In this document: positions 48,001 through 64,000 of the stretch, piece after piece
Numbering within the stretch: position 1 is the first letter of the stretch
How the letters are laid out: each line of letters begins with the position of its first letter
NCBI RefSeq assembly: GCF_003704095.1
Contig: NW_020846537.1
Location: 62,001 to 126,000, forward strand
Reading direction: 5' to 3'
Length of the DNA stretch: 64,000 nucleotides
Origin: Pocillopora damicornis
Taxonomy: Eukaryota
Program-made: the position numbers

Positions 48001-51000
48001 AAGACGAGGAAAAATCGTGGTGGTGTGTTGACTTGAGCGAGAAATATGCTCTTTATCTCACACATTACACTCTCAGACATGGGCGAGACAACGGTATGTC
48101 AATCATTCGTAATTGGCGGCTTGAAGGATCGTTGGACGGACGTACTTGGAAACTGTTAAAGAAACACGAGAATGATCGCGGGCTTAAGGAGCCTTACCCA
48201 TATTACACCGCAACCTGGTGTGTCGATGGGGAGTTCGGAGCTTTTCGGTATTTCAGGATTTTTCAGACGAGCAAGAACTCTTCAGGGAGACATAGCATTT
48301 ATTTATCTGGTATTGAGCTGTATGGAGTCCTTATTGAACGACTCGACAGTTAATGAATTTATAAATAGAACGAAAAAATTGATAAATTAACTAAGGGCAC
48401 TAAAGGATTTTTCAATTTCCTTTCGCTTCTTAGTGTATTTTATGTAGAGTCACACATAGAAAAGTCATTAAACAAGGTAGACTAACTAAGAAAAAAAAAA
48501 TATTTTTAACTAACATTAAATCACCTTGAACGCAAGTTGTGGACTTGTGGTTTCCCCTTGCAAGCAAAGGCTAATCTAAAATGCTAAAAAATTGGTCAAG
48601 CCTTAAGGCACAACGTTTTACCATTTGAGAATTATTCGATAGGGCCTGGGAAATCAAGGCCCGTCGGGATCTTTCGAAGTAAAGTATTCCAGTCAAACCT
48701 CATTCTAGCACATAATTCAGACCAATTCTAACCGCTTATCAACCTGTCATTGTTTTTGGAGAATGAAAGCGTGTAACATTGACCTCGTGACGCGAAAGTT
48801 AGCGAGTTCAAGATTCTGAGGAGAAAAGAAAGGGCATTACCCTTTCTTGAATTTGCATTTCTGCACGGAAAAATTACTCACATCACCAACTGCTCGTATG
48901 ACACTTTATTTGTTGTTAAAACATTCTAACGTCATCTTTGATCTGCGACGGAACAGACCCGCGGGACAATTGAAATTAATTGTTTGTTCTCCCTTATTTT
49001 TTCAAAGTTTGACCGCAAGTGACTACGTGTCTCCATAAAAAGTAACTGTTTAAAACAGTTTTTGTCATAAATTTGCACACTGGACTTTTTCTGTGGCATG
49101 AGTTCCGTCGCAAAATGGAGGCGAACCTGTCTGCTTGCATCCGCACAGGAAGATCTCAGAGCTGGTTACTTCTGCCACAAACCGGACTGGCTTGATTTGG
49201 GTCACTTTATGCCTTCCATCACAGAATGGCTGCAAGGAATACGAGAACTTGAAAAAAAGCTTTCTTTTTTTTTTCATTTTTTTTTTTTAAATAAATGGCC
49301 AAGCAGATCTTCAACCGGCTCTGAAGTCCTCTCCTCCCTGCATCTTTCACTACCATTTGGTGATAAATGTACATTGGCGACTCATTTTAACCATTTTAAC
49401 TTTTCCCTTGGACGAAAGCTTTCAACAATCTTTTAATAATTTTTATAAGATCTTTTGCAACAATTATTTAGTCTTGTCTTGCAATAGCCCCTCCTCCAAA
49501 AATTGCTTCATCCATCTGTTCGAACTGTTCTGTTACAGAAAAGGTCTGAAAGGCTTTCCACCCTCAAACAATAACTTAGAGTATTTCTTTGGGTTTCCCT
49601 TCATAATGCACCCTTTAAAGTCACAAGCAAAAGTGAGATACCTCTTTGAGAATACCCCAAATTCAATATGTAGGGTTATTACAATACATCCCAGAAGACA
49701 ACATAGGTGTTAGTTTTGGTAATTCTACACAGAAATTCTTTGATCATGTAGTGCCATAATGTCCAGTCATGACTCACAATCTTATTTTGATGAAACCTTC
49801 CCCTGAGGCTGTCAAATTGTCAGCCACATTAAGTAACTTTTCATGTCAATCCTTAGTTAGAAAATCACATCCCAATATCAACAAAACAGTGTTTCTTTCA
49901 GGTTATAATAATCTACTGTGAGCTCAAATGAATAAAGGGGGTAAGTTTCCAATGACACTGTGGTGCTGTGTCAGTAGGAGGGTAAAAAAGGGTTGTTAAG
50001 TATTATCAACTGAGTTGATATCATAAATCAGCCACCATAAAGAGTTTTAAAGGTGCAGTTTCGAGCATCAGCTTTAAAACTCTTTACACTGGCCAATTTA
50101 CTGTGAGCTCATCCTTATAAGCATATGAAGTTACCTGTTTTTTACTTAGTCCACACTTGCACCAAGAATACTTCTTCCCTTCAACAAGTTCCACTTGGAA
50201 TGGCTCCTTAGCAGCTATCACTGTTGCATCACAGTAGTGAAAAACCTTCATTGGAAAATAAGGGATTAACTTTTTTTTAAATCACATTTTCAGTAATTTT
50301 TGTGATTAAATTTTATTTTTCTGAAATCATTTAGAGTGGAGGAGTTGTATTGGCAGGACAACTTTATCTAATGGATTCATATAAATTTATGCAATCACAT
50401 CATGCCTGGTCAAATCCAACCTGTAACAATAGTTGGAAAGTGAAGCCACTGTCAGTGATGCGCCTGTTATAATTGTATGCACTTAAATGATTCCATCATA
50501 AAATGTTAACAGACCAGTGATGCAGTTGCATGTATTTACAATGAATCAGTAAGATCAAGTTGTACACCAGCCATGTTGCTAATTCAAGAGAAAGAAAGTC
50601 ACATAATTAACTCCTTTGCTGGCTGTATGCTTTTGACATTGGGAAGGACACTGAGCCATTCACAATCACAGCCATTCTTCGATTTCATTTCTTCCTTCTA
50701 AAAAGTTTTTTTTAAATGGGGGGGTAAGGGTGGGGAGGGGGAGATTGTGTGACAAACTTCAGGACACAATGAATTACTGTGACAACATGCATCCGATACA
50801 TGGGGGTGTATGTACACTTGAAAAAGAAAAGCCACCTGACTCACAGTGAGCTAGAATTAGCCCATTTTTTAAATAGTCAAAGGTGATATCAATGCCTGTG
50901 GCCTGCTAAGGAAAAAAATAAAGTTGTGTTTGAATTAACACTTGATCTGATCATAAAGCAAGATCATGCAGTCATTATCTGGTATTTCAAAAACTATCGA

Positions 51001-63000: not shown

Positions 63001-64000
63001 CATGGGAATATTTGGTCACGTGCTGTGTTTAGACCATCACGTGCGAGCAAAAATGTTTGATGAATCATAATTCTGTTACGGCTGTGTCTAAAAACGTTGG
63101 TGAAAGTGATAAAGAGCCCAGGAAAATAATGAAGCTAACAGCAACAAAGAGTCACCTGATTACGCTTGTTTACTCCCTCGGAGAGGGGGCGATCAAAATT
63201 TGCTACCGTAAACTTCACGTAGTACTGCTGTTTTCATTGCCAGCTTTTGGTTAAATAAAAGAAAGAAAAAGAAGAAAAAATAAAGATATGATGGCAGATT
63301 AAAAAAAAACGCTATCTCTGATTATGAGAGTGTAAATTCAAGCTACAAATTCAAGAGTGTGCTATTGGTTATAACTTACTATCATCATTTCCTGTTTTTG
63401 TTACTCAATAGGCGTCAAAAAATCTGGAATGAACGTCAGGTTTGTTTTTACTTTCTCACGTACCATTCTTTGACTATCAGTTTGATCACAATTGGGGACA
63501 TAGCGCTTCATTACACAGCGCCTTTACAGCTCGGCCCTTTAGAGCGCGCACAAACATGAACTCTTTCGTTGCATACGAAATACTGCAAGATTTGCGATGA
63601 TGTATGTGGAATTCTAGGAAGCTACCTTACGACATTTCAGGAAAATTAACAAAGGGGTGCAAACAAAGCGAAAAAGCGCGGGCGGCGGCCTTGAAGTCTT
63701 AAGCTGACATTTCTTGGGACAAAGAGAATTTCAGTTTAAATGTAATACGTAACTCCAGGCAATAGAACAGAAGAACGAGGATGATATAGTATGGTGATCT
63801 TTAAAAAGAATTAAAATTTACGACCTTGAAACTTTTACTTACATTTGTGGGCATAGACATTCATTGACGCAGCTCCTTCAAAACTAATTGACTGACTGAA
63901 AAACGAGAGGCAATGTTTGACCGTATTTATTCAAGTTATGTTCAAAACAACGATTGTCTTCTAATTGTTGTCATCAAACGGCAAAGTACGTTTTTGTATG

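What the first reader, a model, noticed from the sequence alone, without database searches (positions are those of the whole stretch)
49065..63439. CISD3-COMMD3-PCGF triplet may preserve a pre-vertebrate microsynteny split between human BMI1 and PCGF2 loci
Seen: CISD3(-), COMMD3(+) and BMI1/PCGF2-like(+) are adjacent. Established (from my knowledge of the human map): COMMD3 lies immediately upstream of BMI1 on the same strand at 10p12, and CISD3 is adjacent to the paralog PCGF2 at 17q12, in a different relative orientation from here. Inference: the linkage predates the split between this lineage and vertebrates and was partitioned by reciprocal loss after vertebrate genome duplication, implying long-term cis-regulatory constraint.
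[Added by the scan's program, not by the reader: the finding's places include an assembly gap (unread letters, written N; its length is only estimated) at 52821 to 52920, 57213 to 57312. Whether the letters on both sides are continuous or in frame is not known: test that first.]
Basis: partly seen in the sequence, partly recalled or inferred. Interest (0 to 1): 0.7.

Follow-up and report, generated by a model that had tools for sequence, protein, structure and literature searches.

The report
Coral CISD3–COMMD3–Polycomb RING gene neighbourhood
In a stony coral, three small genes lie side by side whose human counterparts are split between the neighbourhoods of the two duplicated Polycomb genes BMI1 and PCGF2, a neat but not unprecedented sign that this gene order is older than vertebrates.

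Summary
The window is scleractinian coral DNA. Named Pocillopora damicornis proteins are 100% identical to two of its exons.

- **Genes:** between 49065 and 63439 lie a complete 3-exon CISD3 (-), a COMMD3 (+) and the first six exons of a PCGF2/4-class (BMI1-like) RING gene (+).
- **Layout:** CISD3 and COMMD3 are head-to-head, 231 bp between start codons. PCGF starts 3.4 kb after the COMMD3 stop.
- **Gap 52821-52920:** it lies inside COMMD3. About 22 codons present in the Oculina orthologue have no counterpart in readable sequence, and the exon phases need such an exon.
- **Gap 57213-57312:** it is intergenic, so COMMD3-PCGF adjacency rests on the scaffold join.
- **Independent support:** in Oculina patagonica the three orthologues sit on one contig with locus tags G025806, G025807 and G025810.
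- **Missing part:** the PCGF RAWUL domain lies outside the window.

An ancestral linkage later split between the BMI1 and PCGF2 loci is the most economical reading. No invertebrate outside stony corals could be surveyed, and cis-regulatory constraint is untested. Differential loss of neighbours after genome duplication is a published pattern (PMC7530604). I rate this a new member of a known kind, of modest interest.

The parts
49065..49229 (-). CISD3 exon 3: second half of CDGSH motif 1, all of CDGSH motif 2, and the stop codon
   Evidence: Pfam zf-CDGSH E=1e-10. PDB 6avj CISD3 41.2 bits. 100% identical to the named P. damicornis CISD3-like protein. tblastn with the Oculina, Orbicella and Actinia proteins. 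Acceptor AG read.
50135..50245 (-). CISD3 exon 2 (37 codons, first CDGSH region)
   Evidence: tblastn with P0129 and P0130, 79% identity, E=2e-18. Weak Pfam CDGSH hit. AG and GT splice sites read.
51350..51415 (-). CISD3 exon 1 (22 codons, presequence-like N-terminus). An in-frame ATG 33 codons upstream at 51514 is an alternative start.
   Evidence: tblastn with Oculina and Orbicella residues 1-22, 73% identity to Oculina. GTGAGA donor read. The mitochondrial targeting role is inferred from the family name only.
51416..51646 (.). Head-to-head spacer between the CISD3 and COMMD3 start codons (231 bp); putative bidirectional promoter
   Evidence: Coordinates. Promoter function is inferred, not tested. 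CpG observed/expected is 0.64 here, so this is not a CpG island.
51647..51785 (+). COMMD3 exon 1
   Evidence: tblastn with Oculina COMMD3 residues 1-47, 81% identity. 100% identical to the named P. damicornis protein over 80% of the query segment. GTAAGT donor.
52502..52613 (+). COMMD3 exon 2 (HN domain), ends in phase 2
   Evidence: Pfam COMM_HN E=4.4e-5, profile positions 49-83. tblastn residues 48-83, 81% identity. Splice sites.
52821..52920 (.). Assembly gap 1, inside COMMD3. It probably hides one exon, about 22 codons by comparison with Oculina.
   Evidence: Oculina residues 84-105 are unmatched in readable sequence. The phase mismatch between exon 2 (ends in phase 2) and the next readable exon (starts in phase 0) requires an exon of length 1 mod 3. 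The left flank of the gap ends in a repeat copy (family D3). The gap was not filled.
53119..53153 (+). COMMD3 short exon (35 nt; the fourth exon if one lies in the gap)
   Evidence: tblastn residues 106-117. AG and GTAATT splice sites read.
53954..54014 (+). COMMD3 exon, start of the COMM domain
   Evidence: Pfam COMM profile positions 1-16. PDB COMMD3 chain 8f2r_C is the only COMMD hit. tblastn 83% identity.
54416..54472 (+). COMMD3 exon, COMM domain continued
   Evidence: Pfam COMM profile positions 17-36. tblastn. Splice sites.
55303..55362 (+). COMMD3 exon, COMM domain continued
   Evidence: Pfam COMM profile positions 32-56. tblastn. Splice sites.
55747..55806 (+). COMMD3 last exon with stop codon
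   Evidence: tblastn with Oculina residues 177-195, 89% identity. Sequence read.
57213..57312 (.). Assembly gap 2, in the COMMD3-PCGF intergenic region (3371 bp from stop to start)
   Evidence: N run listed. No gene feature spans it. Two open segments tested beside it had no Pfam hit.
59178..59286 (+). PCGF2/4 exon 1 (start codon, first half of the RING finger)
   Evidence: PDB BMI1 51.8 bits against PCGF6 39.7, PCGF1 38.1 and PCGF5 30.9. 89% identical to the Oculina protein. Pfam RING profile positions 1-21.
59658..59754 (+). PCGF2/4 exon 2 (second half of the RING finger)
   Evidence: PDB BMI1 49.2 bits against PCGF1 43.4, PCGF6 26.5 and PCGF5 24.4. Pfam RING profile positions 21-40. 97% identical to P0010 and P0011.
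60911..60966 (+). PCGF2/4 exon 3
   Evidence: tblastn with Oculina residues 65-87, 83% identity. Splice sites read.
61959..62021 (+). PCGF2/4 exon 4 (poorly conserved linker)
   Evidence: tblastn with P0013, E=9e-4. Splice sites read.
62468..62567 (+). PCGF2/4 exon 5
   Evidence: tblastn with P0013 residues 104-140, 62% identity, E=2e-8. Splice sites read.
63412..63439 (+). PCGF2/4 exon 6 (28 nt), the last exon found in the window. The RAWUL exons lie beyond the window.
   Evidence: Weak tblastn match at the end of a P0013 alignment. AG and GT sites and phase fit. No match to Oculina residues from about 151 to 317 up to base 64000.

Best explanation
This is an ordinary protein-coding neighbourhood in a stony coral genome (Pocillopora), about 14.4 kb long, and it preserves an old gene order.

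**The genes (names shown, roles from established knowledge of the families)**
- CISD3: a small mitochondrial protein with two CDGSH iron-sulfur motifs.
- COMMD3: a subunit of the Commander endosomal-sorting complex.
- A PCGF2/4-class RING protein: the partner of RING1 in canonical Polycomb repressive complex 1.

**Layout (shown)**
- CISD3 and COMMD3 are transcribed divergently, with start codons 231 bp apart.
- COMMD3 and PCGF2/4 are in tandem on the same strand, 3.4 kb apart.

**History and mechanism (inferred)**
- The CISD3-COMMD3 spacer acts as a shared bidirectional promoter.
- The three genes were already linked in the common ancestor of cnidarians and vertebrates.
- After the vertebrate genome duplications, one copy of the block kept COMMD3 beside BMI1 and the other kept CISD3 beside PCGF2. 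This is differential loss of the single-copy neighbours.
- What held the block together is not shown. Likely candidates are the shared promoter for the first pair, and transcriptional coupling or regulatory elements of the Polycomb gene lying in or near COMMD3 for the second.
For: - **Gene identities and exon models:**
- **Full-length Oculina orthologues against solved structures:** the PCGF protein scores 195.5 bits to BMI1, 146.4 to PCGF1, 99.1 to PCGF5 and 73.0 to PCGF6. The COMMD3 protein scores 154.6 bits to COMMD3, against 27.4 for the next best, COMMD5.
- **Coral origin:** named P. damicornis proteins are 100% identical to the query exons. Both list a longest contig of 302,957 bp.
- **Second coral:** the Oculina patagonica proteins carry tags ACROYT_G025806 (CISD3), G025807 (COMMD3) and G025810 (PCGF). 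All three list the same longest contig of 33,308,145 bp.
- **Vertebrate COMMD3-then-BMI1 on one strand:** 28 of 120 listed hits are fused models, including the named human read-through. Two of the 150 best COMMD3 representatives show the domain order COMM_HN, COMM, RING, RAWUL, and both are vertebrate-like.
- **Fish:** zebrafish bmi1 and commd3 share one 22.4-kb transposon-free region (PMC2241635, one passage).
- **Human 17q12 list order:** MLLT6, CISD3, PCGF2, PSMB3, PIP4K2B (PMC2958950, passages).
- **One PCGF2/4 gene before vertebrates:** Gahan et al. preprint (passages).
- **The general pattern is published:** different duplicates of a developmental regulator keep different original neighbours (PMC7530604, passages).
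Against: - The COMMD3-PCGF join crosses an unread gap with nothing spanning it.
- In Oculina two further gene models (tags G025808 and G025809) sit between COMMD3 and PCGF, so the pair is not strictly adjacent there. That tag numbers follow contig order is my assumption.
- No invertebrate outside stony corals was examined. Among the 10 named invertebrate PCGF hits, and among the 150 best of 693 COMMD3 representatives, no fused COMMD3-PCGF model from an invertebrate was seen.
- Anthozoans are reported to have two PCGF2/4 genes. Only one is seen here, and the neighbours of the other are unknown.
- The human CISD3-PCGF2 orientation is said to differ from the coral one. That is recalled and not verified, and it would need an extra inversion.
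- The spacer is not CpG-rich, and the introns carry repeats. Nothing marks the block as specially protected.
Confidence: 0.7

Rival explanations
1. The linkage is real and ancestral but kept passively. Anthozoan and vertebrate genomes rearrange slowly, the genes are small and close, and no selection on gene order is involved. The split between the BMI1 and PCGF2 loci is simply random loss of redundant copies after duplication.
For: - Nothing in the window marks constraint. Repeat copies sit in the CISD3, COMMD3 and PCGF introns.
- No RNA family or tRNA was found.
- Oculina seems to tolerate two extra gene models between COMMD3 and PCGF (tags).
- The CISD3-COMMD3 pair, head-to-head here, is broken in human according to the published lists.
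Against: - Systematic surveys attribute most deeply conserved pairs to co-regulation or to regulatory elements inside neighbours (PMC3514665, abstract and passages).
- COMMD3 and bmi1 lie in one transposon-free region in zebrafish, with the human orthologous gene flagged as overlapping such a region too.
- Vertebrate read-through models are widespread (28 of 120).
Confidence: 0.3
2. The adjacency of COMMD3 and the PCGF gene in this window is an assembly artefact. The contig starting at 57313 was joined to the COMMD3 contig by mistake.
For: Gap 2 (57213-57312) is intergenic and no exon, repeat pair or other feature spans it. I saw no named P. damicornis PCGF protein that would tie the gene to the 302,957-bp contig.
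Against: Oculina patagonica has the three orthologues on one contig with tags only four apart. The order and strands in the window are also what the vertebrate COMMD3-BMI1 arrangement predicts.
Confidence: 0.05
3. The resemblance to the human map is coincidence or convergence. The coral block and the two human pairs arose independently.
For: Only two lineages, stony corals and vertebrates, are documented here. The relative orientation of CISD3 and the PCGF gene is said to differ between coral and human (recalled, unverified).
Against: Two separate neighbour matches to the two duplicates of one gene family are very unlikely under random gene order, roughly 1e-6 or less by reasoning. COMMD3 also keeps both its side and its strand relative to the PCGF gene in coral and vertebrates.
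Confidence: 0.05

Closest known systems
Vertebrate COMMD3-BMI1 locus (human 10p12, with an annotated COMMD3-BMI1 read-through transcript)
   Same: COMMD3 lies directly upstream of the BMI1-class RING gene on the same strand. The orthology of both genes is supported. Fused models give the domain order COMM_HN, COMM, RING, RAWUL.
   Different: In the coral the two genes are 3.4 kb apart with an unread gap between them. No read-through evidence is available, and CISD3 sits on the other side of COMMD3. The human chromosome band and the flanking genes are recalled or taken from unordered gene lists.
Human CISD3-PCGF2 neighbourhood at 17q12 (list order MLLT6, CISD3, PCGF2, PSMB3, PIP4K2B in PMC2958950)
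   Same: A CISD3 orthologue lies within a few kilobases of a PCGF2/4-class gene.
   Different: In the coral COMMD3 lies between them, and CISD3 points away from the PCGF gene. The human orientation is said to be different (recalled, not verified by any search).
Ancient genomic regulatory blocks with several bystander genes, dismantled by differential bystander loss after the vertebrate genome duplications (Touceda-Suarez et al. 2020, PMC7530604; conserved ancestral microsyntenic pairs of Irimia et al. 2012, PMC3514665)
   Same: One developmental regulator family (PCGF2/4) has two single-copy neighbours. Each vertebrate duplicate keeps a different neighbour, which is exactly the pattern described in the passage read. 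The head-to-head pair with a spacer under 1 kb fits the bidirectional-promoter class.
   Different: None of the four gene names occurs in the main text of either paper. Their supplementary tables, which hold the lists, were closed. The bystanders here are tiny genes (2.4 and 4.2 kb), not the long-intron genes typical of such blocks. No regulatory element has been shown.
Anthozoan PCGF5-PCGF3-PCGF6 gene cluster (Gahan et al. 2020 preprint)
   Same: It is another case of conserved gene order around Polycomb RING genes in anthozoans.
   Different: That cluster is a tandem array of non-canonical PCGF paralogues. The block here links the canonical PCGF2/4 gene to unrelated genes, and that paper's main text does not mention it (COMMD3 occurs 0 times).

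Membership tests
PCGF2/4 (BMI1/MEL18/Psc class of Polycomb group RING finger proteins) | N-terminal C3HC4 RING finger | tested here: met
   Pfam RING profile positions 1-21 fall in exon 1 and 21-40 in exon 2. Both exons align to the BMI1 RING in solved structures.
PCGF2/4 (BMI1/MEL18/Psc class of Polycomb group RING finger proteins) | Closer to BMI1/PCGF2 than to PCGF1, 3, 5 or 6 | tested here: inconclusive
   Met for PCGF1, 5 and 6. Exon scores to BMI1 are 51.8 and 49.2 bits. PCGF6 scores 39.7 and 26.5, PCGF1 38.1 and 43.4, PCGF5 30.9 and 24.4. The Oculina orthologue scores 195.5 to BMI1, 146.4 to PCGF1, 99.1 to PCGF5 and 73.0 to PCGF6. By my count, 54 of the 120 hits listed carry a BMI1 name and none carries a PCGF1, 3, 5 or 6 name. 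No PCGF3 or PCGF2 comparator came back from any search, and no tree was built.
PCGF2/4 (BMI1/MEL18/Psc class of Polycomb group RING finger proteins) | C-terminal RAWUL (ubiquitin-like) domain | not testable with these tools
   No RAWUL exon lies in the window up to base 64000. The Oculina orthologue has it: precomputed Pfam PF16207, and a match to BMI1 RAWUL chain 5fr6 at 42.1 bits.
COMMD3 (COMM domain-containing protein 3) | HN domain followed by a C-terminal COMM domain | tested here: met
   COMM_HN in exon 2. COMM profile positions 1-16, 17-36 and 32-56 fall in three successive exons. One exon (about 22 codons, HN-to-COMM linker region) is not readable because of gap 1.
COMMD3 (COMM domain-containing protein 3) | Closest to COMMD3 among the ten COMMD paralogues | tested here: met
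   The COMM exon hits only the COMMD3 chain of the Commander structures. The HN exon alone found nothing in the PDB. The Oculina orthologue, 81-89% identical to five readable exons and 63% and 76% over two alignments that run past the exon ends, scores 154.6 bits end to end to COMMD3, against 27.4 for COMMD5.
CISD3 (two-motif CDGSH iron-sulfur protein, MiNT) | Two CDGSH motifs in one short chain, closer to CISD3 than to CISD1 or CISD2 | tested here: met
   Pfam reports two CDGSH stretches in the last exon segment plus a weak one in exon 2. Scores are 41.2 bits to 6avj CISD3 and about 13 to CISD1 chains. The named CISD3-like proteins of P. damicornis, Orbicella and Actinia are the best named hits.
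CISD3 (two-motif CDGSH iron-sulfur protein, MiNT) | Mitochondrial targeting presequence and no membrane anchor | not tested
   Exon 1 encodes 22 residues conserved in Oculina and Orbicella. No targeting or membrane predictor was available.
Conserved ancestral microsyntenic block / ancient genomic regulatory block | Adjacency of the orthologues retained in several distant animal lineages | tested here: inconclusive
   Two stony corals have it (this window; Oculina tags). Vertebrates have the two pairs separately. No other invertebrate lineage could be examined, and the fused-model proxy found only vertebrate cases.
Conserved ancestral microsyntenic block / ancient genomic regulatory block | Regulatory elements of the developmental gene lying within or beyond the bystander genes | not testable with these tools
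   No second coral genome sequence, chromatin data or expression data were on hand.
Bidirectional-promoter gene pair | Head-to-head orientation with under 1 kb between the genes | tested here: met
   The CISD3 start is at 51415 (-) and the COMMD3 start at 51647 (+), leaving 231 bp. The gap is 132 bp if the upstream in-frame ATG at 51514 is used.
Bidirectional-promoter gene pair | Correlated expression from shared promoter elements | not testable with these tools
   No expression data. The promoter scan offered is for bacterial sigma-70 sites and was not used.

The most novel reading that the evidence does not exclude
The CISD3-COMMD3-PCGF2/4 triplet is a eumetazoan-wide regulatory block more than 550 million years old. 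On this reading the canonical Polycomb RING gene has been transcriptionally coupled to COMMD3 since before the cnidarian-bilaterian split, by read-through or by shared elements. The vertebrate COMMD3-BMI1 read-through transcript would then be a relic of that ancestral coupling rather than a vertebrate oddity, and the CISD3-PCGF2 pairing would be the other half of the same block.
Probability: 0.2. Interest if true: 0.55.

Novelty: new member of a known kind. Interest (0 to 1): 0.35.

Why it matters
BMI1 and PCGF2 are central Polycomb regulators of stem cells and cancer, and the COMMD3-BMI1 read-through is an annotated but unexplained feature of the human genome.

If the three-gene block is ancestral, three things follow:
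- It gives a simple, datable example of how the vertebrate genome duplications split one neighbourhood between two duplicates.
- It suggests where to look for old regulatory elements of the canonical PRC1 RING gene: in and around COMMD3 and CISD3.
- It offers a synteny marker for telling which of the two anthozoan PCGF2/4 genes corresponds to the vertebrate pair.

The general phenomenon is already described, so the gain is one more well-anchored case, not a new principle.

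Tried and rejected
**Whole-frame Pfam scans.** I replaced them with stop-free segments exon by exon.

**Single-exon PDB search.** The COMMD3 HN exon alone found nothing in the PDB.

**Fused gene models as a stand-in for a synteny survey.**
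- 28 of the 120 listed PCGF hits are fused models.
- 2 of the 150 best COMMD3 representatives are fused.
- Both representatives are vertebrate-like by BLAST to named proteins. The test therefore says nothing about invertebrates.
- A third long representative, P0337 (358 aa), has only a COMM domain.

**Naming the representatives.** The cluster look-up could not be made.

**Literature.** Nine searches gave usable answers.
- No paper combined the gene names with microsynteny terms: 0 papers for COMMD3+BMI1+microsynteny and 0 for CISD3+PCGF2+synteny.
- One search found 6 papers, none with a microsynteny term.
- In one search only PMC2241635 combined COMMD3, BMI1 and synteny terms.
- Searches (read-through; CISD3/COMMD3 with linkage terms) were badly aimed and returned nothing relevant.

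**Other scans.** CpG content did not mark the CISD3-COMMD3 spacer as an island. Rfam and tRNA scans of the window found nothing.

**Considered and rejected.**
- That the window is vertebrate or human: named coral proteins are identical to its exons.
- That an extra gene hides between COMMD3 and PCGF: two open segments there have no Pfam hit. This is weak evidence.

**Not attempted.**
- Comparing intron positions with vertebrate genes, because no vertebrate gene structures were on hand.
- Joining the predicted exons into one coding sequence.

Full report
**What the window is**

It is eukaryotic DNA at 38% G+C with eight runs of N. It comes from a stony coral.
- A segment holding COMMD3 exon 1 is 100% identical to 'hypothetical protein pdam_00013534 [Pocillopora damicornis]'.
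- The last CISD3 exon is 100% identical to 'CDGSH iron-sulfur domain-containing protein 3, mitochondrial-like [Pocillopora damicornis]'.
- Both records list a longest contig of 302,957 bp.

Nothing suggests human or vertebrate origin.

**How the gene models were built**

I searched each predicted exon on its own and did not join the exons into a coding sequence. That joined step was left out. Full-length comparisons used the database orthologues from Oculina patagonica instead. Exon bounds come from two sources:
- tblastn of named coral proteins against the window;
- AG/GT splice sites and phases read from the sequence.

**CISD3 (minus strand)**

| Exon | Coordinates | Codons |
|---|---|---|
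| 1 | 51415-51350 | 22 |
| 2 | 50245-50135 | 37 |
| 3 | 49229-49065 | 54 plus stop |

- The total is 113 codons, the length of the Oculina and Orbicella proteins.
- Pfam finds CDGSH motifs in exons 2 and 3.
- Exon 3 scores 41.2 bits to human CISD3 chain 6avj, against about 13 bits to CISD1 chains.
- An in-frame ATG 33 codons upstream, at 51514, would give 146 residues. That is the listed length of the P. damicornis model, which I did not fetch.

**COMMD3 (plus strand)**

Readable exons are 51647-51785, 52502-52613, 53119-53153, 53954-54014, 54416-54472, 55303-55362 and 55747-55806, the last including the stop.
- Pfam hits are collinear: COMM_HN in exon 2, then COMM profile positions 1-16, 17-36 and 32-56 in three successive exons.
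- The COMM exon matches only the COMMD3 chain of the Commander structures.
- The HN exon alone found nothing in the PDB.
- The Oculina orthologue scores 154.6 bits end to end to human COMMD3, against 27.4 for COMMD5.
- It is 81-89% identical to five of the readable exons. Two alignments that run past exon ends into intron give 63% and 76%.

**The first gap (52821-52920) lies inside COMMD3**
- Exons on both sides keep order and strand, which supports the join.
- Oculina residues 1-83 and 106-195 are accounted for. Residues 84-105, 22 of 195, find nothing in the readable sequence on either side.
- Exon 2 ends in phase 2 and the next readable exon starts in phase 0. The readable exons alone are not in frame, so an exon of length 1 mod 3 is expected (64 nt if as in Oculina).
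- The only place left for it is the gap, whose length is only estimated.
- The left edge of the gap ends in a dispersed repeat copy (family D3), a usual cause of assembly breaks.

**PCGF gene (plus strand)**

Exons are 59178-59286, 59658-59754, 60911-60966, 61959-62021, 62468-62567 and 63412-63439. The RING finger is split between exons 1 and 2.

| Comparator in solved structures | Exon 1 (bits) | Exon 2 (bits) |
|---|---|---|
| BMI1 | 51.8 | 49.2 |
| PCGF1 | 38.1 | 43.4 |
| PCGF6 | 39.7 | 26.5 |
| PCGF5 | 30.9 | 24.4 |

- The Oculina orthologue (317 aa, 89% identical in exon 1) scores 195.5 bits to BMI1, 146.4 to PCGF1, 99.1 to PCGF5 and 73.0 to PCGF6. It also matches the BMI1 RAWUL domain.
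- By my count, 54 of the 120 listed hits carry a BMI1 name and none a PCGF1, 3, 5 or 6 name.
- No PCGF3 or PCGF2 comparator came back, and I built no tree. The class assignment is strong but not complete.
- Residues from about 151 onward of the Oculina protein, including RAWUL, have no match up to base 64000. The gene runs off the window.
The start coordinate, 49065, is the first base of the CISD3 stop codon.

**Layout**
- CISD3 and COMMD3 are head-to-head, with 231 bp between the conserved start codons.
- COMMD3 and PCGF are in tandem, 3371 bp from stop to start.
- The second gap (57213-57312) lies in this spacer and nothing spans it. Within the window the COMMD3-PCGF adjacency therefore rests on the scaffold join.
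- Independent support comes from Oculina patagonica. CISD3 is ACROYT_G025806, COMMD3 is ACROYT_G025807 and the PCGF protein is ACROYT_G025810. All three list a longest contig of 33,308,145 bp.
- That tag numbers follow position is my assumption. If they do, two further models lie between COMMD3 and PCGF in Oculina.

**Comparison with vertebrates**
- In one search, 28 of the 120 listed proteins combine COMM_HN or COMM with RING and RAWUL. Every one that names a species is a vertebrate (mammals, birds, amphibians, teleosts), and one (P0077) names none. One is named 'COMMD3-BMI1 readthrough [Homo sapiens]'.
- Among the 150 best of 693 COMMD3 representatives, two carry the domain order COMM_HN, COMM, RING, RAWUL. 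One is 99% identical to a sparrow BMI1 model and the other 91% to a pipefish BMI-1-A.
- COMMD3 upstream of BMI1 on one strand is therefore general in jawed vertebrates.
- Zebrafish bmi1 and commd3 share one 22.4-kb transposon-free region, with the human orthologous gene flagged as overlapping such a region too (PMC2241635, one passage).
- For 17q12, a breast-cancer amplicon paper lists MLLT6, CISD3, PCGF2, PSMB3, PIP4K2B in that order (PMC2958950, passages).
No call verified them.

**Interpretation**
- Gahan et al. (bioRxiv 10.1101/2020.03.18.997064, passages) place vertebrate PCGF2 and BMI1 as a vertebrate-lineage duplication within one PCGF2/4 family that predates the cnidarian-bilaterian split.
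- A coral block with CISD3, COMMD3 and PCGF2/4 then fits an ancestral three-gene linkage most simply. One vertebrate copy kept COMMD3 and the other kept CISD3.
- Independent origin would need two coincidences of very low prior odds.
- I therefore accept the historical inference at about 0.7, with three limits:
  - only stony corals and vertebrates are documented;
  - the same paper reports two PCGF2/4 genes in anthozoans, and I see one;
  - the fused-model proxy found no invertebrate case.

**Mechanism**
- What holds the block together is not shown.
- The CISD3-COMMD3 spacer fits the bidirectional-promoter class that Irimia et al. found enriched among deeply conserved pairs (PMC3514665, abstract and passages). 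It is not CpG-rich, and I have no expression data.
- For COMMD3-PCGF, transcriptional coupling or regulatory elements near COMMD3 are plausible by analogy with vertebrates.
- Against that, the coral introns carry repeat copies, and nothing marks constraint.
- Passive retention remains a serious rival, at about 0.3.

**Novelty**
- The pattern is described in general terms by Touceda-Suarez et al. (PMC7530604, passages): different duplicates of a developmental regulator each keep a different original neighbour.
- None of the four gene names occurs in the main text of that paper or of Irimia et al..
- Searches combining the names with synteny or microsynteny terms found 0 papers or nothing relevant. 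The exception is the zebrafish transposon-free-region table.
- The lists that would settle priority are in supplementary files, which were closed.
- I therefore rate this a new member of a known kind, possibly already tabulated.

**What stayed unchecked**
- Any invertebrate genome outside the protein-name evidence.
- The cluster look-up of unnamed representatives (could not be made).
- PCGF3 as a comparator.
- Intron positions in vertebrate genes.
- Expression and chromatin data.
- The two closed sequence collections. They do not bear on this question.

Noticed in passing
window 1-48353: A tandem array of about six paralogous genes, five on the + strand and one on the - strand at about 29481-31780. 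Each has an N-terminal Death or CARD exon, long coiled-coil exons, and a C-terminal F5/8 type C (discoidin-like) exon. Pfam gives Death at 1802-2107, CARD at 44358-44690, and F5/8 type C at 47805-48350 and 40844-41521. The other copies were recognised by eye in the ORF list. This looks like a lineage-specific expansion of death-fold adaptor-like proteins, typical of coral innate-immunity gene families.
   Followed up: partly
window 49928-50064 and 52273-52409; 52684-52754 and 55514-55584; 60242-60452 and 60985-61195: Dispersed short repeats (SINE- or MITE-like) sit in the introns of CISD3, COMMD3 and the PCGF gene. One copy abuts the left edge of gap 1. The locus is therefore not transposon-free in the coral, unlike the zebrafish bmi1/commd3 region.
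   Followed up: partly
PDB entry 8grm chain M: A solved chain deposited under the name 'COMMD3 protein' aligns to the RING exons exactly as BMI1 chains do. The label most likely comes from the COMMD3-BMI1 read-through annotation, not from a real COMMD3 sequence.
   Followed up: no
window 51647-55806 (COMMD3): The named P. damicornis COMMD3 model is 150 aa. An unnamed identical-N-terminus protein and the Oculina protein are both 195 aa. The short model fits an annotation made across the same kind of gap. I did not fetch the same-species proteins.
   Followed up: no
window 51415-51514, minus strand: An in-frame ATG lies 33 codons upstream of the conserved CISD3 start. It would give 146 residues, the listed length of the P. 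damicornis CISD3-like model. The Oculina and Orbicella proteins start at the downstream ATG. The true start, and so the distance to COMMD3 (231 or 132 bp), is unsettled.
   Followed up: partly
one search hit list: Many bacterial hits to the CISD3 exon are CDGSH domains fused to glutamate-synthase-related domains (Pfam PF01645 and PF01070). This domain pairing is unrelated to the finding.
   Followed up: no
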